Source: a virus. Taken from it: a stretch of DNA of 26,706 nucleotides. Both the position numbers and the translations under genes were made by a program. The stretch lies in the UHGV virus genome UHGV-0147372; one strand, written 5' to 3'. This document shows positions 1,795 through 26,015 of the stretch, piece after piece (position 1 is the stretch's first letter; the number at the start of each line of letters is the position of its first letter). Under the pieces are notes generated by a model. It saw nothing but the letters and a program-made list of their open reading frames with translations. It was not told where the DNA came from and made no database searches.

Positions 1795-2695
1795 CCGTTC
1801 CTCCGTTGGTTACGCTCCACTGCGTACATGATGCCGCCTGTGTTTTGTTCAGGACCACATCCGCCAGAGGAGAAGCCAGCTCCACACGCTGCACACCCTC
1901 AACATGCAGGGCGGCAAAGATGGCGCTACGGCGAATATCCCGACCAAGACGTGTCTGACTGGCGATGTACTTCTGCAGGCTGGCTTTTGCCGCTGCCATT
2001 ACCGGCTCTGCTTCCGGTCCCGGATAGAGAAAAATGGTGGCTTCCACGCGATACGGGATGATTTCTGCGCTGCGAACCGTAAGACGGTCAGCCACCGGGC
2101 GGACGTTCTCACTGTTCAGGGCTTTCTCCACCACATCCAGCAAGTCTTTTTCTGCTGTTCCATCGCCTTCGCGGCTAAGGACAGTCAGCACCACCTCTGC
2201 AGGTGCCGGACTGGTTGCACTGGCATCCGCCACCCGACCGTCGGCGCTTCGGGCATGAAATTCATAAGCTGCAGTTGGCCCCGCAACTGAAAGCCCCTCA
2301 AAGGCTGCAGGCACACGCAGGCGTAACGCTTCATCGCTTTCCATCACAGCTGCAACGGGCGGCACAGCGTCATCATCAGCAGGCGTCACCGTCAGGCGTT
2401 TCACGTTGTAGTTGGCAGCGAGCTGGTCAAGATCGCCGCCCATCGCGTAAGCCACCATCACCGCCTGCGCGGCTTCGTTAATGCGCTGGCGCAGAAGCAA
2501 CTCACGGTAAGCGTTCTCCTGCAACAATTTGGTGACTGGTTCAGATTCCAGTTCCAGCGTGCGGATCACTGCTTCCTGCTCATCTTTCGGATGAAGCGCC
2601 ACAAATTCTGCCTTGCGTTCGGCAAGCAGCGTCTCAAAGTCCGACACATCCACAATCTGCGGCGCAGGCAACTGCGAAAGGTCAATCACTGCCAT
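1787..2695 (-). CDS. J: Baseplate assembly protein gpJ
   Basis: Start moved to internal ATG at 2695 (MAVIDLSQLPAP...), aligning with P2 J N-terminus (MPIIDLNQLPAP...); ends ...VTNGGTDE like P2 J. Confidence 0.88.
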   Translation of the reverse strand: MAVIDLSQLPAPQIVDVSDFETLLAERKAEFVALHPKDEQEAVIRTLELESEPVTKLLQENAYRELLLRQRINEAAQAVMVAYAMGGDLDQLAANYNVKRLTVTPADDDAVPPVAAVMESDEALRLRVPAAFEGLSVAGPTAAYEFHARSADGRVADASATSPAPAEVVLTVLSREGDGTAEKDLLDVVEKALNSENVRPVADRLTVRSAEIIPYRVEATIFLYPGPEAEPVMAAAKASLQKYIASQTRLGRDIRRSAIFAALHVEGVQRVELASPLADVVLNKTQAASCTQWSVTNGGTDE

Positions 2696-3041
2696 TCTCT
2701 GCTCCTGTTGATACGGAAAGGGAAACAGGCACACCGCTATTACGCCGCCCGGTCAGCTCCACCACCATTGAACCGTCAAAATTACTGTTTATGGTGATGG
2801 AATCCAGCGTCAGCCGTGGCTCCCAGCGACTCAGCGCCACATACACTGCCGACATGACCTGCAGGCGTAACGCCGGATTTTGTGGCTGGTCTATCAGTGC
2901 CGACAGCAGGGAACCATATTCACGACGGGCAATACGGCTACCCTGCGGTGTCAGCAGAATGTCCCGCACCGACTGGCGCAGATGGTCAATATCAGTAATG
3001 ACTTTGCCGCTGGTATTGTTCATCCCGATATAAAGCGTCAT
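2682..3041 (-). CDS. W: Baseplate wedge protein gpW (gp25-like)
   Basis: 119 aa; ...YIGMN...DILLTPQGSRIARREYGS... pattern matches P2 W. Confidence 0.88.
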   Translation of the reverse strand: MTLYIGMNNTSGKVITDIDHLRQSVRDILLTPQGSRIARREYGSLLSALIDQPQNPALRLQVMSAVYVALSRWEPRLTLDSITINSNFDGSMVVELTGRRNSGVPVSLSVSTGAENGSD

Positions 3042-3616
3042 ACCGGGCCTCCGGTTGTATCGCCGCCTTTCAGGACGCCAGCATGCTGATGCGCATCAAC
3101 CACGATCCCGTTAGAACTCATTGCACCGCCGTCCTGGGTAACGCCACCATTGATTACTACTTCGCTGTTAATACGCGTGCGGTCAGCCTCCAGCACAAAC
3201 TCACTGGTTTTCAGGGTGATATTGTCAGCGGCCTCAATGACCATTGATTTGATGCCCCTGACATACCAGCGCCCAGTGGCTGGTTCGTATTCAAACCAGC
3301 CACCGTCAGGATGTTCTGTCACGCAGGCGTCCGCCGACGTCGACGGTGGTGCGAACTGATTCGAATAGATGGCGGGCAGCGCAAAGGCTGTTTCCAGATT
3401 TCCGCCCAGACTCAGCAGCACCACCTGCTCACCTTCCGATGGTCGCCACCATGTGCGGGCATTACCGGCACGCAGCGTCAGCCAGTTAATCCAGTTGGTT
3501 TCAAGGTCGCCCGTTTTCACCCGGCAAAGCCAGTTTTCCCGGTCCACTTCGGTGACTACACCAGTGCGGATCAGATTGGTGATAAGGCGCATGATTTCGG
3601 TTAATTGTGCGTTCAT
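3038..3616 (-). CDS. V: Baseplate spike/hub protein gpV
   Basis: 192 aa; ...LITNLIRTG...WLTLRAGNARTWWRPSEGEQV... and C-terminal GGDTTGGPV match P2 V. Confidence 0.88.
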   Translation of the reverse strand: MNAQLTEIMRLITNLIRTGVVTEVDRENWLCRVKTGDLETNWINWLTLRAGNARTWWRPSEGEQVVLLSLGGNLETAFALPAIYSNQFAPPSTSADACVTEHPDGGWFEYEPATGRWYVRGIKSMVIEAADNITLKTSEFVLEADRTRINSEVVINGGVTQDGGAMSSNGIVVDAHQHAGVLKGGDTTGGPV

Positions 3617-3663
3617 GTGCTTAGCATGTCGACTTGTCGACTTTTACGATAGATGAGGTAGAT

Positions 3664-3681
3664 TGTGTGCTAAATGACACA
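3664..3681. promoter_or_regulatory. TGT-N12-ACA dyad (ATTGTGT-N8-ACACAAT) in the V upstream region; candidate Ogr/B-type late activator site
   Basis: Sequence tgtgtgctaaatgacaca read directly; P2-family late promoters carry a TGT-N12-ACA activator site; the site is closer to the V start codon than the classical -55 position. Confidence 0.35.
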
Positions 3682-3704
3682 ATGCTTACTGGGATAAGAG
3701 TAAA

Positions 3705-4370
3705 ATGGATATCGAAGATAAAGATTATAAAGACACACTGCTTGCTCTTGAGAAACGAGCCAAATCCACAAAACGTGTAACTCTCAGCTTCATTTACATT
3801 ATGTTTATCTCCATGATCTTAGTTATCGGAGGAGTAGTTTCAATGAAGGCCAATAGTGACAATGCTGTGAGTAGATTTGTTACTGGGATTTTAGATAAAG
3901 ATAAAGTTGAGTCCGCAAGACTCATTAATGAAAGAATGCAAAAACTCCTTGACCAATTTGCTGCTTCAGAAAATAAATTACCGATTCATGATGATCAAAA
4001 CAAAGTAAGCAGAAAATCAATTCAACCCAATGACCTAATTTTCTTTAGAAAAGACACATCAGAAAAAATAGCCGACTCAGTCACTTCTATTATAGTCAGT
4101 TTTTCCATACTCATTTTTATTGGGTATGTTATGCGTGTAGCAATAGTATTCATAAAATATCATATGCAACTCGGCACCGACTACGACAATCAAAAAATCG
4201 CTTTTCTATTAAGCAAAGGACAACCTGAAGAATTTAGAAATAACCTGGAAACTCTTCGAAACCATACCATTGGGTTTGATAAAACACCCCTACCACCACA
4301 AGAAAAAATAATCATGGGATTAATCGATGCTGTCGGCGCAGCAAGAAAAAACACTAAATCTGAGAGTTAG
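3705..4370 (+). CDS. Hypothetical membrane protein (two predicted TM helices), AT-rich moron between S and V
   Basis: 221 aa ORF on the strand opposite the flanking tail genes; hydrophobic stretches LSFIYIMFISMILVIGGVVSM and VTSIIVSFSILIFIGYVMRVAIVFI; A+T-rich codon usage unlike neighbours. Confidence 0.6.
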   Translation: MDIEDKDYKDTLLALEKRAKSTKRVTLSFIYIMFISMILVIGGVVSMKANSDNAVSRFVTGILDKDKVESARLINERMQKLLDQFAASENKLPIHDDQNKVSRKSIQPNDLIFFRKDTSEKIADSVTSIIVSFSILIFIGYVMRVAIVFIKYHMQLGTDYDNQKIAFLLSKGQPEEFRNNLETLRNHTIGFDKTPLPPQEKIIMGLIDAVGAARKNTKSES

Positions 4371-12778: not shown

Positions 12779-13396
12779 TTACCAGTTAAAAATTGATGAG
12801 CTGCGAATTGCAGGAACATCCGATGGATTTCGTTTAGCAGCTGGTTCCATCAACTTACGCTTGTTAAATGCCTGATCAATATAATACTCAGGATTTTTAA
12901 TAAAGACAGAGTATTTTACCAATGCACAATATACGTCAGAGTCATTATAATGGGGAACTGTTTTTTCATAAACATGATTCTTTCTAACCAGATAAGGCAA
13001 ATAATAATCATATCCCCAACCTGGCGTTCTTAGACTTATAGAACATCCGCATGATGGATCTGCACATACTGCAGGAGTAAACACACTGTCGTAAATTTCA
13101 TCTCTGATAACACCAATTAGACCATTATAGTTTTCTCCCCAGAGTGATGCTTGAATTTCAGAGTTTATAAATGGACGATTTTTGGTTTCCGTTCCAATAA
13201 GAACGACAGTAACCGTTGAGTCTTTTAAAAAATCCTCACGAATAGTCCTCATTATTGTTTCATCAGTGTTAGTTGTACTAATGTCACCATCACTTACCGA
13301 CTTATCAATAAACGATTCTCCTCCGAATAAATCAATAATCTCATCTTTGAGATCTTGTTCGTTAGCATGATGATAACTAAGAAACGTCTTATGCAT
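12779..13396 (-). CDS. TIR-like (ThsB/DUF1863-like) protein, candidate NAD-processing signalling enzyme
   Basis: 205 aa; N-terminus KTFLSYHHANEQD resembles the TIR beta-A strand (FISYxHxD); block TVTVVLIGTETKNRPFINSEI resembles the ThsB/TIR beta-C/alpha-C region with the catalytic Glu; AT-rich; identification from memory of motifs, not a search. Confidence 0.5.
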   Translation of the reverse strand: MHKTFLSYHHANEQDLKDEIIDLFGGESFIDKSVSDGDISTTNTDETIMRTIREDFLKDSTVTVVLIGTETKNRPFINSEIQASLWGENYNGLIGVIRDEIYDSVFTPAVCADPSCGCSISLRTPGWGYDYYLPYLVRKNHVYEKTVPHYNDSDVYCALVKYSVFIKNPEYYIDQAFNKRKLMEPAAKRNPSDVPAIRSSSIFNW

Positions 13397-14127
13397 TATT
13401 CACTCCATTTATCAACATTTATATCAAACTCTTTGACTACCTTATCATTGAAGAAATCGTTTACTTCTTTAAAACCTTCCAATACTTGACTAAAATGATA
13501 ATAATGCTTTTGTATAGTACTTATAGGGGTTAAATGATACGGCAGTGATATAAATTCGCCGTTAGGGTCTCTATCCTTTGTGGTCACTTTATCATTATCT
13601 GAAACATATTTATGCCATCTCCGATAATTATTTTGATGCTTTGTTAAAAAAGAGTTTAACGTTTTCAAAATTTCATTTGAAAGTAAATACAGTTTTTTAT
13701 CTCTTTTTTTCTTCACATCTAGTAATTTCATTTCATCTCTAATGAATTTATAGCACTCATAATATGAGTTTAAAACTTCTTCAATTGAGTCATAATTCGG
13801 ATCAAATTTAAATAATGTTCGCTTCGTATCCAGATAATTTTTTACGCTCTTTTTAAAAAGAAGATCAGACTTATTTAGTAAAATATTAATACCACCAAAA
13901 CTAAGTTGCTCCAATCTCAATGAATATCTTTGATGAAATGCACCGACCAGCAAGATATAAGCAACTAAAAATAGTATTAATACTGATAGAAAAGCACGAA
14001 TTATGCTTACATTTGACATGAAATTAACTATAAACCACCATTTTTCAAACGGTGAAAACGGAATGCACCCCATGATAATAAGTAGAAGAACAAAGATACA
14101 ACCCCATAAAACCCACAATCTGTACAT
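13396..14127 (-). CDS. Hypothetical membrane protein (2-3 N-terminal TM helices plus a roughly 170 aa Lys/Tyr-rich soluble domain); candidate effector
   Basis: ORF track begins at a TTG at 14172 that lies inside the predicted promoter; ATG at 14127 (MYRLWVLWG...) with AAGGA upstream is preferred; stop overlaps the TIR-like start by 1 nt. Confidence 0.6.
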   Translation of the reverse strand: MYRLWVLWGCIFVLLLIIMGCIPFSPFEKWWFIVNFMSNVSIIRAFLSVLILFLVAYILLVGAFHQRYSLRLEQLSFGGINILLNKSDLLFKKSVKNYLDTKRTLFKFDPNYDSIEEVLNSYYECYKFIRDEMKLLDVKKKRDKKLYLLSNEILKTLNSFLTKHQNNYRRWHKYVSDNDKVTTKDRDPNGEFISLPYHLTPISTIQKHYYHFSQVLEGFKEVNDFFNDKVVKEFDINVDKWSE

Positions 14128-14149
14128 AAGAAAGATCCTTTTTCTTTTT

Positions 14150-14177
14150 ATAATACTGCAACTACACCTCAAGTCAA
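14150..14177 (-). promoter_or_regulatory. Candidate sigma70 promoter for the membrane-protein/TIR-like operon
   Basis: Minus-strand TTGACT (14177..14172), 16 bp spacer, TATTAT (14155..14150); about 25-45 bp upstream of the ATG at 14127. Confidence 0.35.
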
Positions 14178-15743: not shown

Positions 15744-15977
15744 TTAATGCAGCCAGCTGTCGTCTTCCCACACCTTCTGCATAATTTTCATCACTTGTTT
15801 TCTTTCTTCGTCCAGTTGCAATCCGGTCAGTTCCACACCGTTAGAGCTACCTTTGCGGATACGAATTACCGTTTTGGGATACAGAGGACGCAGATTGCGG
15901 TAAAGCTCGGATTCAAGGGCGTCCAGGGTAGACTGGCTAATCTTCTGCTCTTTATCGATCATTATTTCAATGCGCAT
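15744..15977 (-). CDS. DinI-like protein (186 Tum C-terminal-domain-like; candidate SOS-induced antirepressor or RecA modulator)
   Basis: 77 aa MRIEIMIDKEQKISQSTLDALESEL...QKVWEDDSWL aligns with E. coli DinI (MRIEVTIAK...LPAGAIDALAGEL...ETWESADDWF) as recalled; downstream of a LexA box. Confidence 0.75.
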   Translation of the reverse strand: MRIEIMIDKEQKISQSTLDALESELYRNLRPLYPKTVIRIRKGSSNGVELTGLQLDEERKQVMKIMQKVWEDDSWLH

Positions 15978-15988
15978 AAAAAGTCACC

Positions 15989-16177
15989 TCAACTGATGAC
16001 ATCCATTGAGCGGTTGTATTCGTGTGTTCTGATTTTTGCCATGAGTTCATCTGTTAGTTCAGAAACCCACTGCAAAGCCAGCCCCTTCTCTTCATCACTA
16101 CACTCACTAGCCGCTACAAGCTTAAGAAAAAAATCAATGCGCTGGAGCTTCAAAGACTCCAAAAAATAGTCCTGCAT
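15989..16177 (-). CDS. Hypothetical protein (62 aa), first gene of the LexA-boxed operon
   Basis: ATG at 16177 with AGGAGG 4-5 nt upstream; 11 nt gap and different frame from the DinI-like gene, which has its own GGTGA SD. Confidence 0.5.
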   Translation of the reverse strand: MQDYFLESLKLQRIDFFLKLVAASECSDEEKGLALQWVSELTDELMAKIRTHEYNRSMDVIS

Positions 16178-16201
16178 CTTTCCTCCTATGACACCAAAGC
16201 A

Positions 16202-16237
16202 ATACTGTAAATATAACCACTGTTTATATTTACAGTA
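16202..16237. promoter_or_regulatory. LexA operator: canonical SOS box CTGTTTATATTTACAG (16220..16235) within a longer dyad, overlapping a second half-matching box CTGTAAATATAACCAC
   Basis: CTGT-N8-ACAG read directly; inverted repeat ATACTGTAAATATA / TATATTTACAGTAT flanking it; sits 43-60 bp upstream of the 62 aa gene start, overlapping likely -10 elements. Confidence 0.65.
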
Positions 16238-16329: not shown

Positions 16330-18702
16330 TTAATACAGGTTTCGCCACTTATCATCTTCCTGCAAACGCTGGTTCCGATAGAAGATACGCAGGCCTGCTC
16401 CTGACGGAATACTGCCGCCGCGAAGGAGTAAATCGACCTCTTTCTCGCTACCATCAAATCCTCTGGACTTCAGCTCATAGACGAGCTGCTGTCGCTGATG
16501 GTCTGTAATTCGCTGTTTGTAGTCTTTACGCCGTTTCGGTTTAACCAGGCGTAACCTTGCTGCCAGTTCCCGGCGCTCTTTTTTGCTCATACTGTGCAGG
16601 TAATCGTGCAACTGCTTGTCATCCATGCGGGTAATGTCCGTTCTGGTGCCCCCATCAGCTGATTTATCTTTCTCCTGTTGGTTCAAATTTTCAGCAAGGG
16701 GACAGTTATTGCCACGAGTCCAAGGGGCGCAAGCGCCCTGGTCGGCTGCCGCCTCCTGAACGTCAACGGCCTTACGAACCATTTTCCACTTCACGGCATG
16801 AGTGCAGATCTTGCCCTCTGCAATAGGTGACCAGATGCCATAAATACGAATGCCGTGATCGCCATAGGCGGTCGGCTCTTCGTTGATTTCATAAGCAGTT
16901 CTGATGAGGTGATATTTGCGGGGAACCAGTACGCCACCCTGCTTCATGATGTAGGTGGCAAAACAACCAGCATCAGCAGCAGCCAGAATGGCATCAAGGC
17001 GCGGGTTATCCAGTACCGGCGCACCTGCTTTTTTGTCCCCCTGTTGCCTTGCCGCCTGACCAGCCAGCAATCGCAGTTCACGGTAAGCCTGACGCCCCGG
17101 AATGCCAAAGAAGCGGAATTGCTGAACACGATGCAGAGACGCCCAAGCATTAACGTATTCAGCATTATCACGCAGGGATTTCCCCGTTTCCTTGCTGATC
17201 TCGCCAGCCAGACCACGCCCGTCAATGTTCTTACTGATGTATTTCGCGATGTAGCTTGTTGGCGTACCTTTGCGCGGGTTAATCAACTCAGACTTAAAGC
17301 GCGGCCCAGTGTTATTGCCCAGCTCCTCGCGGTCTTCACGGATGGCAAACTTACGCAGTAATGCAGTGATGGTGCGGCGGTCTTTTTTGCGCATAAAACA
17401 CAACAGGTGCCAGTGAACTGTACCGTCATGATGCGGCTCAGCCACCCGCACGCCATACCACCGCAATCCGGCTTTGTGCATCGCCTTACGAAATGCAGCA
17501 AACATGCCGACCAGATAATCACTGCTTTGTCTTACCGTCGCATTTGTCCAGGTTGGGTTGGGCCTGCCGTTATTTAGCGTGGAATGGAAACGTGACGGAC
17601 AGGTGATGGTGTAGAAAACGGCGCAGTCACCGCGCATTTCCGCGATAAGCTCCAGACCTTTAACACAGGCCATCATCTCATTGCGGCGATGCGCAGGGTT
17701 GCTGCTGCTGGCGTTTACCACATCCTCCATGTCCAGCGTGTCGCCGTCTTCGTTCACCAGTTCATGAGAACGGAAAAACTCCAGCGACTTACGGCGCTGC
17801 TCACGTTTATGCATCACGGCTTCATAGCTGACATAGGGAGATGCTTTTTTGCTGACCAGGCAAACAGCACGCAACTGCTCTTCCCGCCATTCGCAACGCA
17901 TCTTCCATAATTTCCGGTACCACCAGTCGGCGCACAACATACGCGCCAGCGAACCCGGAATGAGTTCATAGGGCACGGGTTTACGGCGGTTTCTTTTCCG
18001 GCGGAGTTGCTCAAACGCAGGCGGTATGACATCCAGTCGCAGGGTTTCTGCTGCCACCTTTTCCCATGTCTTGCGGATTTCTTCTGGCTTAACGTCATCG
18101 GTGGCATACAAATCGCCACAAGCTGCATCAAGGCACATGCTCATATGCGCAGCAACAAGGGTGGACAGGCGTTTCACCTGATCCTGACTCATTTCAGGCA
18201 GAATCAGCAGGCCGTCCAGCCCTTCATGGCTTGCCATAAAGCGAAAAGAAGTGGATAGCTGACTGTCGCGCACATGCTCCAGCCGTTCCAGACATGGCTT
18301 AATCGTCTCACGCAAATAGCGGGAATAAGCCTTTGGCCTGCCAAGGCTGCTGAAGTATTCAATACGTTGCATCAGCGGCTTGCTGATATGGGAAGGCTGG
18401 GCATTGACGTCCGCCAGAATGACCATATCTGGATTAAAACGCTGCTGCTCATGCGCCAGCTTTGCCCGACTAATGAGCTTATCCTGCTCCATTTCGCGCT
18501 GGACAGGATCACGGGATTCATTAAAGAAATAACGCTCCCAGACCTGATCACTCAGTACCTCGCGGCGCAGGTGTTCCTGCTCGTTATCGGCAGCGTACAG
18601 AGCGATCAGGTTTGAAAGCGCAGAAACTGAAGATTGCTCTTCTGTCTCTACGTAAGGATTGATTGCTTTTTTCTCAGCATTCCAGGAATAGCTGTAGTTC
18701 AT
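16330..18702 (-). CDS. A: Replication initiation endonuclease gpA (rolling-circle initiator)
   Basis: 790 aa; P2/186 gene A size class and position at the end of the early operon. Confidence 0.88.
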
Positions 18703-19532
18703 TACGCAATCTCCAGTTCGAGCTGTGAAGGCTGCAAACCATTCGACAGCCAGTCAGAAACTGAAGGTGGGCGAACAGCTTCAATTGCACCTTTTAAAAT
18801 TGCGCAACGGTTTTTCAGAATGACAGCTTTCAGCTCCTTTTCCGTCAGATTGCGCGAATACTCAGCCTCCTGAATAGCCCGCGTAAGCTCAGGATATTTG
18901 CTATTAAATTTGGGGACATTGCAGGCAAGATTTGTACTGTCGGCAGTCGCCAGTGGGTAATTTCCCAACACACGACCGTCAAGCATGCGCAAACCATGAA
19001 CAGCTGTTTTGAAATTGTGTCGGCAATAAATTGCTTCAAAAGCGTCCTGCATACGACGATGCCAGTGCGCAGTTCTAATAGCCGCATATTCACCAGACGA
19101 TCCAAAGCAGACACGAGGCCATTCACGACATAGCTCGATAAGCCGATCGATTGACTCGTGCAGATGCCAGACGGGAGTTGCCTTCCCGTAGAACATTTTC
19201 GGAACTTCGTTTATCAGGGCATCATTGTCACGTTCACCTCCGTCCACAACATCAGGAATGACAAAAAAAGCGACCTTAGGATGGTAGTAATAGTTCAGGA
19301 GCCATTTATAAAAATCATTCCAGTTAATTTTTAGCCCACGCACCCATGCAGAAAATGCGCCGTTATCAATGCCAACGACCTGGGCGTGCTGAATGGACGC
19401 CGCAATCTGATCTGGTCGTACATAGGAGACGAAAGCACCAGCTCCGCTCACCGCAATACGATGAACGTCGCCAGCACTTCCCCAGACAGGCGTCCCATGG
19501 AAATGATGAATTCCGTGGTGCATTTCTTTCAC
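18702..19532 (-). CDS. TGT-fold (DpdA-like DNA transglycosylase) candidate; otherwise hypothetical
   Basis: 276 aa; motifs VGIDNGAFS (compare TGT LTDSGGFQ), FFVIPDVVD (compare IVMIFDEC) and FGSSGE (compare VGGLAVGE) in TGT order, with no zinc-binding C-terminus; ATGA overlap with Dam upstream and TAATG overlap with A downstream. Confidence 0.35.
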
Positions 19533-20607: not shown

Positions 20608-20846
20608 CAGTGGATCTCCTGCGCTTCGTTCTGGATTGCTTCAGCAGTCACACGCAGCAGTTCTGCCGCTTCGACGTGGTTTAACTGGCGGGATGTGATA
20701 TGACACGCCAGGCGATCAAGGCGAGCTGCCATTGCTTCAGCCCTTGCCCGGCGTTCTTCCAGACGAGCCTCTGTCAGTAAAATATTAAGCCCTGCGTCAT
20801 CCGGTCCGGTTTTAGTCGTGAGGGTTTCAATATTACGCATAATCAA
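20607..20846 (-). CDS. Hypothetical early protein (P2 orf81 position)
   Basis: 79 aa ORF in the early operon; 1 nt overlap with the downstream gene. Confidence 0.55.
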   Translation of the reverse strand: MIMRNIETLTTKTGPDDAGLNILLTEARLEERRARAEAMAARLDRLACHITSRQLNHVEAAELLRVTAEAIQNEAQEIH

Positions 20847-20907
20847 TTCTCCTGAATTTAGATAAAGGGATGCCCGGCGGGTTTACGCCATTAATTTCAT
20901 TAGTTGG

Positions 20908-21249
20908 TTAATTCGGCATGGTTAGCCGTCTGGGAAATAAGCTCACCACTGCACGAAAATGATTCATTGCTTTAATCAGCTCCCGCTTTTCGTCAGTGGT
21001 CAGCTCATTAATGCTGATGCTATGACGTTCAGCCGGAATTTTTGCCATAAAGAATATAGCAGCCAGTGCCCGTTTATTTTGTTCATTATTGATATCCCGT
21101 GGATCACGCATATCTTTAATAAACCGCTCAAGCTCTGACTCAATATTCAGGCCAAAAACTTTCGCCCTTAATTCCGCTATGTGATTAAGTCCACTCAGGC
21201 GTTCACCGGGGCTTAATGGAACAGTCGCCGCAGCGCCTTCAATAGCCAT
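20908..21249 (-). CDS. Hypothetical early protein (P2 orf80 position)
   Basis: 113 aa ORF in the early operon. Confidence 0.55.
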   Translation of the reverse strand: MAIEGAAATVPLSPGERLSGLNHIAELRAKVFGLNIESELERFIKDMRDPRDINNEQNKRALAAIFFMAKIPAERHSISINELTTDEKRELIKAMNHFRAVVSLFPRRLTMPN

Positions 21250-21413
21250 TTGTTCCCCCTTTTTTTCGTAGATAGTTCTGCCAGCAATTCATCTTGTGAA
21301 CGGCACGGATGCCAGCGTTTACCATCCTCCCCCATGATCCAGCCGTGACCGTAGTGCATTGCCGGACTTTGTTTTACCAGCAGCGATGCAAATGATGGTT
21401 CTTTAGTAAGCAT
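21213..21413 (-). CDS. Hypothetical small early protein (Fil/Dhr position of 186)
   Basis: Start set to the ATG at 21413 (MLTKEPSF...), which has a GAGGTG SD 4-5 nt upstream; the longer ORF-track start would overlap the cII 3' end. Confidence 0.5.
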   Translation of the reverse strand: MLTKEPSFASLLVKQSPAMHYGHGWIMGEDGKRWHPCRSQDELLAELSTKKRGNKWLLKALRRLFH

Positions 21414-21420
21414 AAGCACC

Positions 21421-21930
21421 TCACAGCAAACCGAATGAAGCACCGAGGCCAGTCACGGTATCAACTGCACTCGCCATCGCAGGATTAGCCTGTAAACGGG
21501 CCTGCAATGAAACAGCCGCCAGCGCCATCAGTCGTGTTACAGAGTTAATGCTGCTGATAGCATCACGACGACCTGCACTGGTTTTTACATCGCCAGATAC
21601 CGCACCTGCAGCAACACGCCCGATCTCTGCGGTTGCACTCATGACGTAATGTGGCAGTTTCTCTTTTGCCACCTCATTAATCGGTACGCATGGCAGGCAG
21701 TGAATCTGAGCCAGAAAACCATCTACCAGCGTTGAATCTTCAGTCAGATCGGTAAGCAGCCAGATTTCTGGTGCGGTTAATAAATGAGGTTGAGCCGGGT
21801 TCAGCTTGTTCCGCAGAATCTGCACATTCATGCCAGCACGTTCTGCCAGTTGCACCAGGTTGTGGCGCAGCGCGAATGCACGACAGGCTTCATCAAAATG
21901 TGGATGTTTGGAAACTTGGTAATCAAACAT
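21421..21930 (-). CDS. cII: 186-type CII-like lysogeny establishment regulator
   Basis: 169 aa from the internal ATG at 21930; [24 protein letters not shown]... matches phage 186 CII N-terminus as recalled; same length as 186 CII. Confidence 0.7.
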
Positions 21931-21962
21931 AGTCGACACCCCTGATGTATCCCAAAATGGAA

Positions 21963-22184
21963 CTAGTTGAATACAACATTGCAATCAGTAAGTGCATCAA
22001 CGGTAAGAGCAGCAAGGTTGATCATTACCTTTTCTCTTTTCTTGTCTTTCCGAAGGCGATGACGAGGGATGCGACCATCAGCCAGCATATCGTTGATTGT
22101 GTCGATAGAAAGACCAGTAAGTTCGCTATAACGCTCAATTGTGACGTGCGGCGTATTCAGAGTTATTGAAATGTTAGGGGTCAT
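21963..22184 (-). CDS. apl: Apl/Cox-like excisionase and lytic-promoter repressor
   Basis: 73 aa from the ATG at 22184 ([24 protein letters not shown]...), AGGAGA SD 9 nt upstream; first gene of the early operon, divergent from cI. Confidence 0.65.
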
Positions 22185-22272
22185 GATGCAACATCTCCTA
22201 TTGGCTTGTGGTGAGCCGGTATTAATCGTGACGAAAACTTCACAAAACGGAGAATAGGTTCGCATAAAGAAT
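22185..22272. promoter_or_regulatory. Lysis/lysogeny switch region between apl and cI (expected promoters and operators)
   Basis: 88 bp intergenic region between divergently oriented apl and cI; candidate minus-strand TTGTGA -35; operators not resolved by eye. Confidence 0.4.
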
Positions 22273-23214
22273 ATGTCAACTAATAAAATCACATTTCGCC
22301 ATATTGAAGATCATCTGAAAGCCATGGTCATGCAGAATCGAGGAGGGCAAAAAGTCATTGAGAGAATACTCATGGCCTATGGTTTCAAATCACGCCAAGC
22401 ATTCTGTAACCACCTTGGTATTTCACAAAGTACAATGGCTAACAGATATGCACGCGATACCTTCCCTGCTGATTGGGTTGTTATATGTTCAATGGAAACT
22501 GGCGCATCAATCGAATGGTTAGCATTTGGTTTAGATGCTGAAGAAGGAGTGCCAGCTCCTTCGCCAGAACGGCATGCTGAAAAACAGTCTGCAGATGAAT
22601 TTTGCAATGAAGTTCACACCCCCACGATAAAGTTCGATAATGAAAACCACATGGATTTCACTCGAGGGGGTAAAGCAGCAATAGAGCGAATTGTTAAGGC
22701 TTACGGTTACAAAACGCGCCAAGCCTTAGCCGATCACCTTGGTATCTCAAAAAGCACATTAGCTACACGATACATGCGAGACATTTTTCCGGCAGACTGG
22801 ATCATCCAATGCTGTTTAGAAACAGGAGTGTCTCTCGAGTGGTTATCTTTTGGTAAGGGGCATTCCAATCAAACAAAGCTAAGTGGGTTGCTTACATTAG
22901 ACTGCTATGATCTACGTGACGGCAAACTTACTGATCAAAGAGAATTAATCGTTTCGAGCGAAATTTTACCTCAAAATTTAAAACATCCCTATATAGTTAA
23001 TTCCGCAAATGATTCATATATCATTAGCAAAGAGGAGTATCTTAGCGATGGTCTATGGTTAGTATCTATTAACGGAGAATTTACTTTTAGAGACATATTT
23101 AAACTTCCAAACAATCGCATCCGCGTTGAAAACACAAAATATAGCTTTGAATGCGATAAAGAAGATTTGGAATTTAATAATAAAGTTAAAGGAATAATTA
23201 GAAAAAGGGTTTAA
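22273..23214 (+). CDS. cI: CI-type immunity repressor with tandemly duplicated N-terminal DNA-binding domain
   Basis: 313 aa; two roughly 60 aa copies (KVIERILMAYGFKSRQAFCNHLGISQSTMANRYARDTFPADWVVICSMETGASIEWLAFG and AAIERIVKAYGYKTRQALADHLGISKSTLATRYMRDIFPADWIIQCCLETGVSLEWLSFG) resembling the 186 CI N-terminal domain, then a C-terminal domain. Confidence 0.75.
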   Translation: MSTNKITFRHIEDHLKAMVMQNRGGQKVIERILMAYGFKSRQAFCNHLGISQSTMANRYARDTFPADWVVICSMETGASIEWLAFGLDAEEGVPAPSPERHAEKQSADEFCNEVHTPTIKFDNENHMDFTRGGKAAIERIVKAYGYKTRQALADHLGISKSTLATRYMRDIFPADWIIQCCLETGVSLEWLSFGKGHSNQTKLSGLLTLDCYDLRDGKLTDQRELIVSSEILPQNLKHPYIVNSANDSYIISKEEYLSDGLWLVSINGEFTFRDIFKLPNNRIRVENTKYSFECDKEDLEFNNKVKGIIRKRV

Positions 23215-23216
23215 CA

Positions 23217-24266
23217 ATGAGCTTTACGAAAACTATTGAATTTGCAAACTATACCTTAAATTTTGGAGAGGACAAAGTTCTCTTAGATGCTTTTGATTGC
23301 ATTGTTTTTCCTTCATTTTTCGCACAAAAATACGTTAGAAAATTTAAAGATACAGAATATTTCTTTACTGACACAAAAATTATTACGTTAGATACTACAG
23401 ATTCAGATTTTATTGGTCCTATAGTTCCAACAATTGCATTGTGTGGCCGCATTATAAAAAAGACCATATTTAAACGAGATCAAATATTTCAAGATGGTCA
23501 ATTAATTCGAGATCACAGGACGCTAGAAAGTCACCCCAGCTCTATTTTTATTCTTATGCTTAATGAGCACAGATTAATGCTTTGCAAAGAGGTTTCTGGA
23601 GCCCCTACCCTAGAAGAATTTGAAAATACTAGCAAGTATTGCCTTGCACAGCGATATAATTCTTTTGTGGATTACGAAGTAAAAAAAAATAAAAGAATTA
23701 GAAAGAAAAAATCATACATTGATCGACTGTATAAAAAAGATATTTATCGTAAACTAGGAGCCCCCAAATTACGGGTTACCCCCTTAACAGACCCAAGATC
23801 ATTGAGCAATTTTGTTGAACTCTTTTCTGTTGTTAATAGATTATCAATTGAGTTATTGCCAACAAATAGTGAAAATATATCTCTTGATGGCTTCTGGAGG
23901 AAAATTGAACAAGAAAAAGAAGAACTTAATAGTAGTAAAGCTCAATTAGTATACACAAATAAAAATGAAGATGGTTTAAATTCTGAGGCCGTCATTCAAA
24001 AAACAACAAGTGCAACCCGAATGGCCAACTCTAAAGTAATTATAAGTGGTAAAGATGAACACGGAGCAAGGCTATCAGGGAATAATGATAGTTTTACTCT
24101 AAAAGCATCAAGGCCACAACTTAGTTCTGATTTGGAAAGAGCTGCTCAAGAGGCGTATTCTGCATTCACAGAATTAAAGGATGCAGGAAATATTATCATT
24201 CCAGAACGTGAAGATTATACTAAAATTTTTTCCAAGTTAACATCAATAATTTCTAGGTGGCTATAG
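23217..24266 (+). CDS. Hypothetical cytoplasmic protein (349 aa), AT-rich, co-transcribed with cI; RexA-like by position only
   Basis: Starts 2 nt after the cI stop; no recognisable motif; Lys/Asn-rich AT-biased composition. Confidence 0.6.
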   Translation: MSFTKTIEFANYTLNFGEDKVLLDAFDCIVFPSFFAQKYVRKFKDTEYFFTDTKIITLDTTDSDFIGPIVPTIALCGRIIKKTIFKRDQIFQDGQLIRDHRTLESHPSSIFILMLNEHRLMLCKEVSGAPTLEEFENTSKYCLAQRYNSFVDYEVKKNKRIRKKKSYIDRLYKKDIYRKLGAPKLRVTPLTDPRSLSNFVELFSVVNRLSIELLPTNSENISLDGFWRKIEQEKEELNSSKAQLVYTNKNEDGLNSEAVIQKTTSATRMANSKVIISGKDEHGARLSGNNDSFTLKASRPQLSSDLERAAQEAYSAFTELKDAGNIIIPEREDYTKIFSKLTSIISRWL

Positions 24267-24267
24267 T

Positions 24268-24873
24268 ATGAAATATACATTCAACCCAGAAGATCTGACC
24301 AAAGAGCGATCTTTGCATGATGTTTACAAATTAACTAAAAAAATAAAGGTCAATTCATTTGACTTTTATTTCACATTATTATTAGTGATATTATTATCTA
24401 TTAATGCTTTTTGTCTATCTTCATCACCAGAGTTAATTTCATCTATTAGACAATGGACACCTTTAGTATTCGGATTCACTACAACAACATTAGGTTTTTT
24501 AATTACTGGATTTACAATATTTGCAACCATAAATAAACCTGAACTTTTCCTTTCATTAATGGAGTATAAGCATCCATTATACGGGATAAGTTACTTAAAA
24601 TATGTTTATGGCGTATTTATGAGAGTATTTATATATTTCATATTTTGGTCTGTTATCTATCTTTTAGTCCTTCTTTTCGGGCAAGAAAATGGATTGGCTA
24701 CAAAATTACTCAGAGCCTTAATGTTTTCTCATTGCACTAAAGTTGTTGGAGTTCAAATACTATATATACTCGTAGGAAGCAGTGCAGTGTTCCTTGTATT
24801 AACTTTAAAAACTTTCCTGTTCAATATTTATGCTATGTTAATGCAATCTCTACGCTGGGAAGTAGAAAGATAA
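24268..24873 (+). CDS. Hypothetical polytopic membrane protein (201 aa, about 4-5 TM); RexB-like by architecture only
   Basis: Starts 1 nt after the stop of the upstream gene; several 20-residue hydrophobic segments. Confidence 0.62.
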   Translation: MKYTFNPEDLTKERSLHDVYKLTKKIKVNSFDFYFTLLLVILLSINAFCLSSSPELISSIRQWTPLVFGFTTTTLGFLITGFTIFATINKPELFLSLMEYKHPLYGISYLKYVYGVFMRVFIYFIFWSVIYLLVLLFGQENGLATKLLRALMFSHCTKVVGVQILYILVGSSAVFLVLTLKTFLFNIYAMLMQSLRWEVER

Positions 24874-24962
24874 AATTAACCTCAATGTATGAATCTCAAT
24901 TCATATACATTGACACTGGTTATACATACAGTAAAAATGCTCTCCACTGGAGGGCATTTTTT

Positions 24963-26015
24963 ATGGCAGTACGAAAACTCACCACAGGAAAATGGCTATG
25001 CGAATGTTACCCCGCGGGACGTAGTGGACGTCGTGTGCGTAAACAATTCGCCACCAAAGGTGAAGCTCTGGCTTTTGAGCGTCACACGATGGAAGAAACC
25101 GAAGCAAAGCCCTGGCTGGGTGAATCAGTGGATCGTCGAACACTGAAAGACGTGGTTGAGCTATGGTTCAAACTACATGGTAAATCTCTGACAGCTGGGC
25201 AGCATGTCTATGACAAATTGCTGTTGATAGTTGACGCTCTGGGCAATCCCCTTGCAACCGATCTCACCTCTAAAATGTTTGCCCACTATCGAGATAAACG
25301 CCTGACAGGAGAGATCTACTTCAGCGAAAAATGGAAGAAAGGAGCAAGCCCGGTCACCATTAACCTGGAGCAAAGCTATCTTAGTAGTGTTTTTAGCGAA
25401 CTATCCCGCCTGGGCGAATGGTCGTATCCGAACCCACTGGAGAACATGCGAAAATTCACCATCGCTGAAAAAGAGATGGCATGGCTTACCCATGAGCAGA
25501 TTGTTGAATTACTGGCTGATTGCAAACGTCAGGACCCAATTCTGGCACTGGTAGTTAAGATATGCTTAAGCACAGGCGCACGCTGGCGAGAAGCCGTAAA
25601 TCTTACTCGTTCACAGGTGACCAAATACCGAATTACCTTTGTAAGAACGAAGGGGAAGAAAAACAGAAGCATCCCTATCAGTAAAGAGCTTTACGAAGAG
25701 ATCATGGCGCTTGATGGGTTCAATTTCTTCACAGACTGCTATTTTCAATTTTTATCCGTGATGGAAAAAACGTCTATCGTGCTCCCTCGCGGTCAACTCA
25801 CACACGTTCTGCGCCATACGTTTGCGGCGCACTTCATGATGTCGGGTGGAAACATCCTGGCCTTACAAAAAATTCTCGGACATCACGATATAAAAATGAC
25901 GATGCGTTACGCACATCTGGCACCGGATCATCTGGAAACGGCGCTCCGTTTCAATCCTCTGGCAACGCTGCCAAGTGGCGACAAAGTGGCGGCAGCGGTT
26001 GGCATTACCCCGTAA
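24963..26015 (+). CDS. int: Tyrosine integrase (P2 Int family)
   Basis: Start set to the ATG at 24963 (MAVRKLTTGKWLCECYPAGRSGRRVRKQF...), aligning with the P2 Int N-terminus (MAIKKLDDGRYEVDIRPTGRNGKRIRRKF...); conserved LSTGARW.EA, HVLRHTFA and MRYAH boxes. Confidence 0.9.
   Translation: MAVRKLTTGKWLCECYPAGRSGRRVRKQFATKGEALAFERHTMEETEAKPWLGESVDRRTLKDVVELWFKLHGKSLTAGQHVYDKLLLIVDALGNPLATDLTSKMFAHYRDKRLTGEIYFSEKWKKGASPVTINLEQSYLSSVFSELSRLGEWSYPNPLENMRKFTIAEKEMAWLTHEQIVELLADCKRQDPILALVVKICLSTGARWREAVNLTRSQVTKYRITFVRTKGKKNRSIPISKELYEEIMALDGFNFFTDCYFQFLSVMEKTSIVLPRGQLTHVLRHTFAAHFMMSGGNILALQKILGHHDIKMTMRYAHLAPDHLETALRFNPLATLPSGDKVAAAVGITP

What the first reader, a model, noticed from the sequence alone, without database searches (positions are those of the whole stretch)
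22273..23214. Immunity repressor with a tandemly duplicated DNA-binding domain
The CI-like protein is 313 aa, against 192 aa for 186 CI as recalled, and contains two consecutive, clearly related copies (roughly 55-60% identical by eye) of the 186-CI-type N-terminal HTH domain, each with the ...HLGIS.ST.A.RY.RD.FPADW......ETG.S.EWL.FG signature, followed by an AT-rich C-terminal domain. A single chain with two DNA-binding domains could read both operator half-sites or two operators as a monomer, changing cooperativity and immunity specificity relative to 186.
Basis: seen in the sequence. Interest (0 to 1): 0.55.

Follow-up and report, generated by a model that had tools for sequence, protein, structure and literature searches.

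The report
Two-headed 186-type prophage immunity repressor
The gene is a real, widely conserved prophage repressor that carries two different DNA-binding heads on one chain, borrowed from two separate repressor classes, and its own promoter region carries the matching DNA sites; nobody appears to have studied such a repressor.

Summary
Observation confirmed. ORF 22273..23214 (+) encodes a 313-aa CI with two PF07022 HTH domains (aa 22-88 and 127-198; 64% identical), a disordered 38-aa linker and a 186-type C-terminal domain (PF16452).

It is not an artefact. The allele is intact in 11 complete E. coli genomes and in Klebsiella phage 4LV2017. About 50 protein clusters share the architecture.

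It is not a recent in-place duplication. D1 belongs to the HTH class of ~207-aa single-domain CIs. Residues 127-313, starting at a retained Met, are collinear with a whole 187-aa CI. In all 48 tandem proteins D1 and D2 are only 43-67% identical.

The lytic promoter region is composite:
- D1-class half-sites (TCACAWWWCG) lie at -33, -13 (two mismatches in this window) and +16 from the cI ATG. These are the offsets seen in 207-aa-class phages, and the sites are absent from phages that have only a D2-class head.
- An opposite-strand TCACGATTA site lies at -42, as in D2-class phages.

Natural D1-deleted derivatives have also lost the D1 sites.

Best reading (inferred): an oligomeric 186-like repressor in which each subunit reads two operator classes. 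A cross-immunity or defence role is a live alternative. It is a new variant of a known kind. I found no paper on it. Interest is moderate.

The parts
22273..23214 (+). cI: 313-aa immunity repressor with two HTH domains (stop codon included)
   Evidence: ORF. 2x PF07022 + PF16452. PDB 2FJR 186 CI matches aa 136-309 at E 1.8e-28. Annotated 'repressor protein CI' in KY271398 and by PGAP.
22273..22335 (+). N-terminal extension (aa 1-21), shared with the ~207-aa CI class; it contains half-site d
   Evidence: Alignments. Nonsynonymous changes exceed synonymous ones here except in the TFRH codons. The TFRH codons decay to KLKFSH where the gene is not next to pR.
22336..22536 (+). D1: first PF07022 HTH domain (aa 22-88), 207-aa class, recognition helix SQSTMANRYAR
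   Evidence: It is the most constrained part of the protein: 82-97% aa identity across the family, with 8-36 synonymous against 2-12 nonsynonymous codon changes.
22537..22650 (+). Disordered, hypervariable linker (aa 89-126)
   Evidence: AF2 pLDDT is below 50 for aa 89-121 and 123-126. Only 21-53% aa identity among relatives, with variable length.
22651..22866 (+). D2: second PF07022 HTH domain (aa 127-198), 187/189/196-aa class, recognition helix SKSTLATRYMR; it begins at a retained Met127
   Evidence: aa 127-313 align without end gaps to the whole 187-aa CI of Kluyvera locus L085 (115/187 identical).
22867..23211 (+). C-terminal domain with the 186 CI fold (oligomerisation domain in 186); AT-rich
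   Evidence: PF16452 E 1.3e-19. Foldseek 2fkd_A TMt 0.90, rmsd 1.7 A. GC 31.6%. Only 21-37% identical among family members.
22240..22249 (+). Half-site b, TCACAAAACG (D1 class), about +1 to +10 of the predicted pR transcript
   Evidence: One of only two exact TCACAWWWCG matches in 26.7 kb. It sits at offset -33 from the cI ATG in 28/29 tandem switch regions and in all 17 207-class ones, and in none of the D2-only phages.
22260..22269 (+). Half-site c, TCGCATAAAG (degenerate here), in the pR -35/-10 spacer
   Evidence: Offset -13. It reads TCACAAATCG or TCACAAAACG in relatives and in 207-class phages. It resembles the 186 FR half-site TTCACATAAAG.
22289..22298 (+). Half-site d, TCACATTTCG (D1 class), inside cI codons 6-9, upstream of the pR -35
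   Evidence: The second exact match in the window. Offset +16 in both the tandem and the 207-class families.
22221..22231 (-). Half-site a, TCACGATTAAT on the pR strand (candidate D2-class site)
   Evidence: An opposite-strand site of this type is present in tandem (24/29), 189-aa (21/22) and 187-aa phages and absent from 207-class phages (0/17). The pattern was defined post hoc, so this evidence is weaker.
22251..22279 (-). pR-like lytic promoter: TTGACA (22279-22274), 17 nt, TATTCT (22256-22251); its -35 overlaps the cI start codon
   Evidence: Consensus scan, 10/12. It occupies the position of pR in the annotated 186 record.
22166..22194 (+). Putative pL-like promoter for cI: TTGAAA, 17 nt, CAACAT, spanning the apl start
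   Evidence: Found by eye, by analogy with the annotated 186 pL. Conserved in relatives. It did not pass the consensus scan, so it is an inference.
22203..22217 (.). Conserved palindrome GGCTTGTGGTGAGCC between the two promoters; function unassigned (candidate Apl site)
   Evidence: Present in all phages that share this Apl. Absent from 207-class phages.
21963..22184 (-). apl/cox-like excisionase-repressor gene (73 aa), divergent from cI
   Evidence: phrog_575 'Cox-like excisionase and repressor', E 9.6e-32. 85-100% identical in tandem and D2-only phages, about 26% in 207-class phages.
21421..21930 (-). cII (186-type lysogeny establishment activator)
   Evidence: PF06892 Phage_CP76, E 4.4e-42.

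Best explanation
This is the working immunity repressor of a 186-like (Peduoviridae) E. coli/Klebsiella prophage.

Architecture: it is a chimera. An N-terminal module (a 21-aa extension, HTH domain D1 and a disordered 38-aa tether), taken from the ~207-aa CI class, is fused in front of a complete 187-aa-class CI (D2 plus the 186-type oligomerisation domain).

Proposed action: the protein oligomerises through its C-terminal domain as 186 CI does. Each subunit then offers two different HTH heads.
- D1 binds the co-oriented TCACAWWWCG half-sites b, c and d. These cover the start site, the spacer and the region upstream of the -35 of the lytic promoter pR.
- D2 binds the opposite-strand half-site a (TCACGATTA), immediately downstream, and possibly weaker sites toward pL.
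- Together they shut off pR and so relieve the convergent cI promoter.

Shown: the architecture; the class membership of each domain; purifying selection on both; the C-terminal fold; the presence, position and class-specific distribution of the sites.

Inferred: which domain binds which site, oligomerisation, and the effect on transcription.
For: Architecture and fold:
- 2x PF07022 + PF16452.
- The AF2 model shows three folded domains and a linker with pLDDT below 50.
- C-terminal domain TM 0.90 to 2FKD.

Class membership of the two domains:
- The D1 helix-turn-helix SRQAFCNHLGISQSTMANRYARDTFPADW is near-identical to that of ~207-aa CIs (identical in P0078).
- D2 carries the SKST[LM]A[TN]RYMR recognition helix of the 187/189/196-aa CIs.
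- Identities: D1 to the 204-209-aa class 72%, D1 to D2 56%, D2 to the 196/203-aa class 79%. The NJ tree agrees.
- aa 127-313 are collinear with a whole 187-aa CI. The DNA from the Met127 codon through the downstream cargo genes is 72% identical to Kluyvera locus L085.

Selection: D1 has 8-36 synonymous against 2-12 nonsynonymous codon changes versus 13 relatives; D2 has 18-35 against 13-26.

Sites:
- Exact TCACAWWWCG occurs only twice in 26.7 kb, both times at pR.
- The looser pattern is found at -33, -13 and +16 in 28/29 tandem and 17/17 207-class switch regions. It is found in 0/22 189-aa, 0/1 187-aa, 0/1 186 and 0/2 D1-deleted regions. Background is 0.003 per 175 nt.
- The sites track D1 and not the neighbouring Apl. 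Apl is 85-100% identical in phages that lack the sites and about 26% identical in 207-class phages that have them.

Natural controls:
- The 196/203-aa CIs keep MSTxK plus the linker end, so they are D1 deletions. They have separately lost site b, which is replaced by a palindrome, GTCCCCAAATGGGAAC, that resembles the 186 pR operator.
- Where the tandem gene sits away from pR, site d has decayed.

Other points:
- The TCAC core equals the half-site of the annotated 186 FL and FR operators.
- The a-b spacer varies from 6 to 8 nt among relatives, which suits tethered heads better than a rigid dimer.
Against: - There are no binding data of any kind.
- D1 and its sites are physically adjacent (-33 to +264), so their co-occurrence could partly reflect linkage in one recombination module.
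- The assignment of site a to D2 rests on a pattern defined after looking at the data (background 0.027 per 175 nt), and the D1-deleted phages miss that regex by one base.
- D1 and D2 half-sites share the same TCAC core, so either head might bind any of them.
- Site c is degenerate in this window (2 mismatches).
- The site spacings are 20 and 29 bp. Only the first fits the two-turn phasing known for 186 (PMC3675496).
- pL was identified by eye only.
- The wheel-forming contacts of the C-terminal domain were not examined, and that domain is only 28% identical to 186's.
Confidence: 0.55

Rival explanations
1. Stacked (dual) immunity or defence. The main selective value of carrying two unlike heads is to repress incoming phages of two otherwise heteroimmune classes (207-aa class through D1, 187/189-aa class through D2). 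The lysogen is then protected from both. Repression of the phage's own pR needs only one head. This is not exclusive of the best explanation.
For: - Each head has the recognition helix of a free-standing CI class found in the same hosts.
- The tandem phage's D1 sites sit at the same offsets as in 207-class phages, so cross-recognition is plausible.
- In L012-type prophages a normal 191-aa cI sits next to apl. An intact tandem cI (307 aa, cluster of 98 sequences) follows as a second gene without operators of its own, in the cI-int slot that holds a KAP-like NTPase gene (my reading of the sequence) there and AAA/SMC-type cargo in other loci.
- Unlike-head combinations arose several times, in both orders (L167, L168, L169). 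They are always heterotypic: 43-67% identity in 48 of 48 proteins.
Against: - There are no infection data.
- Sharing D1 sites would also make the tandem phage sensitive to the repressor of a resident 207-class prophage, which is a cost.
- Co-occurrence or exclusion of prophage classes within genomes could not be computed with these tools.
- The L012 arrangement could be a by-product of recombination.
Confidence: 0.25
2. Single-chain pseudo-dimer. A duplicated HTH lets one polypeptide read both halves of an operator as a monomer, replacing dimerisation.
For: Two homologous HTH domains on one chain. Sites a and b form an inverted pair of TCAC cores, GTGAC-N7-TCAC.
Against: - The domains are heterotypic and old: 64% aa identity, with third codon positions near saturation.
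- A full 186-type oligomerisation domain is retained.
- The tether is about 38 disordered residues, with no confident packing of D1 against D2 (pTM 0.38).
- The other sites (c, d) are co-oriented single half-sites, not palindromes.
- No 186-type TTCAC-N5-GTGAA palindrome lies near the switch.
Confidence: 0.1
3. D1 does not bind operators. It is a regulatory appendage, for example a decoy or docking site for an SOS-induced antirepressor, or an autoinhibitory domain. D2-CTD does all the DNA work.
For: - D2-CTD is by itself a complete CI.
- D1-deleted derivatives exist and sit in the normal cI position.
- An SOS module with a LexA box and a homologue of the C-terminal half of 186 Tum is present, with a novel 62-aa ORF in place of Tum's N-terminal half.
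Against: - D1 is the most conserved part of the protein. Its HTH residues match those of 207-aa CIs, in which this domain is the only DNA-binding domain.
- The D1-class sites sit on the pR core elements.
- The D1-deleted derivatives also changed their operator.
Confidence: 0.07
4. Artefact: two adjacent genes joined by a frameshift or sequencing error, or a decaying pseudogene.
For: None found.
Against: The identical open frame occurs in independent complete genomes and phage isolates. About 50 clusters at 90% identity share the architecture. Both domains are under purifying selection.
Confidence: 0.01

Closest known systems
Coliphage 186 CI immunity repressor (PDB 2FJR, 2FKD; 14-mer wheel of seven dimers)
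   Same: - Same Pfam families (PF07022 HTH, PF16452 C-terminal domain).
- Same C-terminal fold (TM 0.90).
- Same locus layout: int and cI on one strand, apl and cII divergent.
- A pR-like promoter abuts the cI start.
- The TCAC half-site core is that of the 186 FL and FR operators.
- A LexA-controlled module includes a homologue of the C-terminal half of Tum.
   Different: - Two HTH domains per subunit instead of one, joined by a disordered tether.
- 31% identity over D2-CTD.
- The pR sites are co-oriented half-sites plus one opposite site, not three palindromic operators two turns apart.
- No FL/FR-like palindromes were found.
- 186 uses one HTH to read two operator types (per Shearwin et al. 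2002, from my own knowledge). Here two heads could divide that labour.
~207-aa single-domain CIs of Klebsiella/Enterobacter 186-like prophages (e.g. P0053, P0078; loci L064-L082)
   Same: - N-terminal extension and HTH near-identical to D1.
- The same pR promoter.
- The same TCACAWWWCG sites at -33, -13 and +16.
   Different: - A single HTH.
- Two further upstream sites (-48, -68).
- An unrelated Apl (about 26% identity).
- No opposite-strand site.
187/189/196-aa single-domain CIs (e.g. Kluyvera L085, E. coli P0120, Enterobacter P0108)
   Same: - D2-CTD is collinear with them.
- The same Apl family.
- The same GGCTTGTGGTGAGCC palindrome and opposite-strand TCACRA site.
- L085 even shares the downstream cargo genes.
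   Different: - They lack D1 and the D1-class sites.
- The 196/203-aa forms look like secondary deletions of D1 from a tandem ancestor.
Monomeric two-domain mycobacteriophage immunity repressor (TipsytheTRex; PMC9283540)
   Same: One chain uses two DNA-contacting domains to read an asymmetric site.
   Different: That protein's two domains are unrelated folds and it is monomeric. This one has two homologous HTH domains plus an oligomerisation domain.
P2 C repressor (PMC2995052)
   Same: An immunity repressor of a related phage group that recognises direct rather than inverted repeats.
   Different: An unrelated small protein with a single domain. It acts as a dimer on two direct repeats.

Membership tests
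186-type CI immunity repressor | N-terminal PF07022 helix-turn-helix domain | tested here: met
   Two copies, whole-protein E 2.5e-57.
186-type CI immunity repressor | C-terminal PF16452 domain with the 186 CI CTD fold | tested here: met
   E 1.3e-19. Foldseek 2fkd_A TMt 0.90, rmsd 1.7 A over 108 columns.
186-type CI immunity repressor | [quoted passage not shown] | tested here: met
   apl-like phrog_575, cII PF06892, integrase PF00589 at 24885-26015. Two cargo ORFs lie between cI and int.
186-type CI immunity repressor | One DNA-binding domain per subunit | tested here: not met
   Two domains. This is the point of difference from the canonical family.
186-type CI immunity repressor | Face-to-face pR and pL promoters with CI operators over pR | tested here: inconclusive
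   pR-like site 10/12, with TCAC-core sites across it. pL was found only by eye and by analogy. No binding data.
186-type CI immunity repressor | Assembly into dimers and a 14-mer wheel that wraps DNA | not testable with these tools
   Only a monomer model was possible. The fold is conserved but the interfaces were not assessed.
186-type CI immunity repressor | Induction by a LexA-controlled antirepressor (Tum) rather than RecA-mediated self-cleavage | tested here: inconclusive
   Perfect LexA box at 16220-16235. The DinI-like ORF is 42% identical to Tum aa 72-145. The upstream 62-aa ORF has no similarity to Tum's N-terminal half. No PF00717 hit in CI.
Recent in-place tandem domain duplication | The two copies are each other's closest relatives | tested here: not met
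   D1 is closer to 204-209-aa CIs (72% mean, 83% best) than to D2 (56%). D2 is closest to the 196/203-aa and 182-189-aa CIs. D1-D2 identity is 43-67% in all 48 tandem proteins.
LexA / lambda CI type self-cleaving repressors | Peptidase S24 catalytic domain | tested here: not met
   No PF00717 hit at E <= 0.1. Only weak fold resemblance to LexA (E 5.7e-5, TM 0.30). A distant relative, P0260, does combine 2x PF07022 with S24.
Monomeric two-domain repressors (mycobacteriophage type) | No oligomerisation domain; acts as a monomer on an asymmetric site | tested here: not met
   A 186-type oligomerisation-domain fold is present. The oligomeric state itself was not measured.

The most novel reading that the evidence does not exclude
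The two-headed CI is a natural 'immunity stacker'. By joining the DNA-recognition heads of two heteroimmune repressor classes on one oligomerising scaffold, it represses its own composite promoter and also silences incoming phages of both parental classes. It can also be carried as a stand-alone anti-phage cargo gene behind a normal cI, as in L012-type prophages. Repeated, independent assembly of unlike-head combinations would then be an arms-race strategy among 186-like prophages.
Probability: 0.25. Interest if true: 0.7.

Novelty: new variant of a known kind. Interest (0 to 1): 0.5.

Why it matters
Phage 186 CI is one of the few repressors whose cooperative, nucleosome-like wheel has been worked out in detail. 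It is also known for reading two different operator types with a single HTH.

A natural relative with two different heads per subunit, a matching composite promoter and ready-made natural controls gives a direct way to ask three questions: how immunity specificities arise, how they combine, and how they are exchanged between prophages. The natural controls are D1-deleted derivatives with a swapped operator, single-head parents of both classes, and a copy detached from the promoter.

If the heads also act on other phages, this would be a simple repressor-based form of prophage-encoded defence in clinically common E. coli and Klebsiella lineages. The modular design may also be useful for engineering multi-specific repressors.

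Tried and rejected
- 186-type palindromes (TTCAC-N5-GTGAA, up to 2 mismatches): none convincing near the switch. The only nearby hit, at 22156, has 2 mismatches, and hits are scattered across the window.
- Distal FL/FR-like copies of the D1 site: none. One-mismatch matches are at chance level, 13 found against 12.6 expected.
- Short inverted repeats in 20800-23300: none resembles the 186 pR operator. One 12-nt imperfect hairpin lies inside the linker codons (22538-22567) and is unexplained.
- An internal start at Met127 giving a short D2-CTD isoform: rejected as a general feature. The Met is kept only in this subgroup and no Shine-Dalgarno sequence precedes it.
- The out-of-frame ATG after the AAGGAG in the linker: it is in the wrong frame (by inspection).
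- PADLOC on CI and on the two cargo ORFs: no hits.
- A D2-class operator consensus: attempted from the 189-, 187- and 196-aa phages. Only a loose opposite-strand TCACRAWWA pattern emerged.
- Species-representative genomes: only 2 of 14 loci are tandem, so this scan says little about distribution.
- Literature: four full-text searches plus a read of the P2-like regulatory-gene survey (PMC3448106) found no description of a two-HTH CI. That survey notes only 'longer couplers' and longer C-terminal domains. Many subscription-journal papers are not in the library.
Full report
**1. What is there**

The ORF at 22273..23214 (+) is open for 313 codons.
- Pfam finds two Phage_CI_repr HTH domains (PF07022, E 2.5e-57) and one Phage_CI_C domain (PF16452, aa 213-305, E 1.3e-19).
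- The two HTH segments (aa 23-86 and 131-194) align without gaps at 41/64 = 64% identity. The score is 241, against 25.6 +/- 3.8 for shuffles.
- Their DNA is 66% identical, with 27/64 identical third codon positions.
- An AlphaFold2 model built on 30 family members shows three folded units: helices at aa 13-85, helices at 133-193 and a beta domain at 206-310. The linker is disordered (pLDDT below 50 for aa 89-121 and 123-126). There is no confident inter-domain packing (pTM 0.38).
- The solved 186 CI (2FJR) matches aa 136-309, that is the second HTH plus the C-terminal domain (E 1.8e-28).
- The modelled C-terminal domain superposes on the 186 CI C-terminal domain 2FKD with TM 0.90 and rmsd 1.7 A.
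- The C-terminal domain has 31.6% GC, like the two downstream ORFs (30-33%) and unlike D1 (41.8%) and D2 (45.8%).

**2. It is not an artefact and not rare**
- The gene with its upstream region (window 22100-23214) is 99.7-100% identical in 10 complete E. coli genomes, and 98.7% in an eleventh. About 400 further genomes carry partial matches at 80-90%.
- The protein is 98% identical in Klebsiella phage 4LV2017 (Peduoviridae, Elveevirus) and in 11 Kp48xx phage records. A second tandem group, at 52% identity, occurs in other Klebsiella prophages.
- Among the 120 best database clusters, 49 have two HTH domains (lengths 227-330 aa). They come from E. coli, Salmonella, Klebsiella, Enterobacter, Citrobacter, Kosakonia and Edwardsiella.
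- An exhaustive search of 50%-identity representatives adds more distant two-HTH + CI_C proteins from Hafnia, Citrobacter, Edwardsiella and Shewanella. One architecture combines two PF07022 domains with a peptidase S24 domain.
- All are annotated simply as 'phage repressor protein CI' or 'helix-turn-helix domain-containing protein'.
- I found no paper that mentions the double domain.

**3. The two heads are of different kinds**

In a tree of all HTH domains, D1 of the main tandem family groups with the HTH domains of ~207-aa single-domain CIs. These also share the 21-aa N-terminal extension. D2 groups with the 182-203-aa CIs.

Mean identities:

| Pair | Mean identity |
|---|---|
| D1 vs 204-209-aa class | 72% (best 83%) |
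| D1 vs D2 | 56% |
| D2 vs 196/203-aa class | 79% |
| D2 vs 182-189-aa class | 68% |

- The helix-turn-helix of D1 (SRQAFCNHLGISQSTMANRYARDTFPADW) is near-identical to that of 207-aa CIs (identical in P0078). D2 carries the SKST[LM]A[TN]RYMR recognition helix of the other class. Phage 186 itself has ASSSLSNRYTR.
- Residues 127-313 start at a retained Met (MDFTRGGK...) and align end to end with the whole 187-aa CI of a Kluyvera prophage (L085, MDFNSGGK...; 115/187 identical).
- The DNA from the Met127 codon through both cargo ORFs is 72% identical to that locus.
- So the protein is an N-terminal module (extension, D1, tether) placed in front of a complete CI.
- Other combinations exist, all in the normal cI position:
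  - a 186-like head followed by a D2-class head (Kosakonia, L167);
  - a D2-class head followed by an SNSTLANRYLR head (Edwardsiella, L168);
  - a third type (E. coli, L169).
- In all 48 tandem proteins D1 and D2 are 43-67% identical. None is a recent duplication.

**4. Selection**

The window gene was compared codon by codon with 13 family members.

| Region | aa identity | Synonymous / nonsynonymous codon changes |
|---|---|---|
| D1 | 82-97% | 8-36 / 2-12 |
| D2 | 64-82% | 18-35 / 13-26 |
| Linker | 21-53% | mostly nonsynonymous |
| C-terminal domain | 21-37% | mostly nonsynonymous |

D1 is the most constrained part of the protein. The C-terminal domain goes with the cargo rather than with the heads: it is 59% identical to L085, which shares the cargo, against 21-37% to other tandem CIs.

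**5. The switch region**
- A sigma-70-like promoter on the minus strand (TTGACA 22279-22274, 17 nt, TATTCT 22256-22251) has its -35 overlapping the cI start codon. It corresponds in position to pR in the annotated 186 record.
- The annotated 186 FR and FL operators are ATTCACATAAAGTGAAT and ATTCACATTAAGTGAAG. The TCAC core is therefore a known CI half-site.
- In the window, exact TCACAWWWCG occurs only twice in 26.7 kb, at 22240 (b) and 22289 (d). Both are on the plus strand.
- A degenerate copy (c, TCGCATAAAG) lies at 22260. An opposite-strand TCACGATTAAT (a) lies at 22221-22231.
- Relative to pR these sites lie as follows:
  - a: about +13 to +23;
  - b: over the start site;
  - c: in the -35/-10 spacer;
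  - d: upstream of the -35.
- Across 29 distinct tandem-family switch regions the whole segment is strongly conserved. The a-b spacer varies in sequence and by up to 2 nt in length.

**6. Which head goes with which site**

A census of the 175 nt around the cI start gave the following for the D1-type pattern. Background is 0.003 per 175 nt.

| Class of locus | Regions with the D1-type pattern |
|---|---|
| Tandem, next to pR | 28/29 (offsets -33, -13, +16) |
| 207-aa class | 17/17 (same offsets, some with further copies at -48 and -68) |
| 189-aa class | 0/22 |
| 187-aa class | 0/1 |
| Phage 186 | 0/1 |
| D1-deleted (196/203 aa) | 0/2 |
| Tandem gene not next to pR | 0/4 |

- The sites do not follow the neighbouring Apl. 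Apl is 85-100% identical between tandem phages and the D2-only phages that lack the sites. It is only about 26% identical in the 207-class phages that have them.
- Two natural controls agree.
  - The 196/203-aa CIs begin MSTSKYPNEIKINPNQGGK, which is the tandem protein's first residues joined to the end of its linker. Their HTH domains nest inside the D2 clade, so they are D1 deletions. Their site b has been replaced by GTCCCCAAATGGGAAC, a palindrome resembling the 186 pR operator TCTCCCAATTGAGAGA.
  - In L012-type prophages a normal 191-aa cI lies beside apl and an intact tandem cI follows as a second gene. There the codons that hold site d have drifted (ITFRH to KLKFSH). This suggests that the conserved TFRH motif reflects the DNA site rather than the protein.
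- The opposite-strand site a has counterparts in tandem (24/29), 189-aa (21/22) and 187-aa phages and none in 207-class phages (0/17). That pattern was defined after inspection and has a higher background.

**7. Interpretation**

The tandem-CI phages combine two things: the apl/pL side and the D2-CTD of one CI class, and the pR operators and head of another.
- The most economical mechanism is an oligomeric 186-like repressor in which D1 occupies b, c and d on the pR core, while D2 occupies a and perhaps weaker sites toward pL.
- The long disordered tether explains the tolerance to spacer variation.
- A cross-immunity or defence role is not excluded and may coexist with this. Three observations point that way:
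  - the L012 arrangement;
  - each head is the sole head of a free-standing class in the same hosts;
  - unlike-head combinations arose repeatedly.
- All binding assignments are inferences. Linkage between D1 and its adjacent sites is a caveat.

**8. Context**
- The window is a 186-like prophage. It carries gpA (PF05840), Dam methylase, cII, a Cox/Apl-like gene, cI, two AT-rich cargo ORFs and an integrase.
- A perfect LexA box (16220-16235) precedes a 62-aa ORF and a DinI-like ORF. The DinI-like ORF is 42% identical to the C-terminal half of the 186 antirepressor Tum. The 62-aa ORF has no similarity to Tum's N-terminal half.
- This suggests SOS induction through an antirepressor, as in 186.

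**9. Verdict**

This is a real, conserved and apparently undescribed variant of a well-known repressor family. It is a new variant of a known kind and of moderate interest, and it offers clear experiments.

Noticed in passing
window 23217-24266 and 24268-24873 (+): Two AT-rich ORFs (349 aa and 201 aa; 30-33% GC) lie between cI and int. They have no Pfam or PADLOC hit; the 349-aa ORF has only a weak match to phrog_10040 (unknown function), and the 201-aa ORF has none. By eye, the 201-aa protein has several hydrophobic segments. The pair is 76% identical to a pair at the same position in a Kluyvera prophage (L085). It is a candidate accessory or defence cargo in a cI-int variable slot.
   Followed up: partly
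window 22867-23211, compared with L085 and L010-L061: GC drops at the D2/C-terminal-domain boundary. The C-terminal domain is far more variable (21-37% identity) than the heads, and it co-varies with the downstream cargo (59% identity to the locus that shares the cargo). The recombination boundary of the variable slot seems to lie inside cI.
   Followed up: partly
L012 (also L013, L014, L017, L027) 2375-3924: These prophages have two cI genes in a row: a normal 191-aa cI next to apl, then an intact 307-aa two-headed cI without operators of its own, then a 505-aa KAP-like NTPase ORF (my reading of the sequence, not a tool hit) and int. The two CIs share the D2-class recognition helix and are 55% identical over D2-CTD.
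   Followed up: partly
L083, L084, L086 (cI at 2501 or 2148): The 196/203-aa CIs appear to be D1 deletions of tandem CIs: the N-terminus is MSTSK joined to the linker end. In the same loci the D1 site at -33 is replaced by the palindrome GTCCCCAAATGGGAAC, which resembles the 186 pR operator.
   Followed up: yes
window 22288-22300 (cI codons 6-10): Half-site d lies inside the coding sequence. The conserved residues T7 F8 R9 H10 seem to be held by the DNA site, since they drift when the gene is not adjacent to pR. This is a case of overlapping protein and operator constraint.
   Followed up: partly
window 15744-16235 (-): A perfect LexA box, CTGTTTATATTTACAG (16220-16235), is followed by a 62-aa ORF with no known relatives and a 77-aa DinI-family ORF. 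The DinI-family ORF is 42% identical to aa 72-145 of 186 Tum. It looks like a Tum-like SOS antirepressor module split into two ORFs, with a different N-terminal part.
   Followed up: partly
window 12779-13396 and 13396-14172 (-): A ThsB-like TIR-domain gene (PF08937, E 1.5e-14) sits next to a 258-aa ORF with no family hit. This may be a Thoeris-like or other TIR-based defence cargo in a second variable region of the prophage.
   Followed up: no
window 18702-19532 (-): A 276-aa ORF between gpA and the Dam methylase matches phrog_887 'queuine tRNA-ribosyltransferase' (E 2.6e-95) but no Pfam family. It may be a DpdA-like DNA-modification enzyme.
   Followed up: no
window 22203-22217: The palindrome GGCTTGTGGTGAGCC, between the predicted pL and pR, is conserved in every phage that shares this Apl (tandem, 196-, 187-aa and other tandem types). 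It is duplicated in L049 and absent from 207-class phages. It may be an Apl site or a further CI site.
   Followed up: partly
window 22538-22567: An imperfect 12-nt inverted repeat (CTGAAGAAGGAG / CTCCTTCGCCAG) containing an AAGGAG lies inside the linker-coding region. Its significance is unknown.
   Followed up: no
proteins P0260, P0190, P0225, P0157: Two PF07022 domains also occur with a peptidase S24 (LexA-like) C-terminal domain (P0260), and in Shewanella and Edwardsiella proteins. Doubling of this HTH is therefore not confined to the 186-type C-terminal domain or to Enterobacteriaceae.
   Followed up: partly
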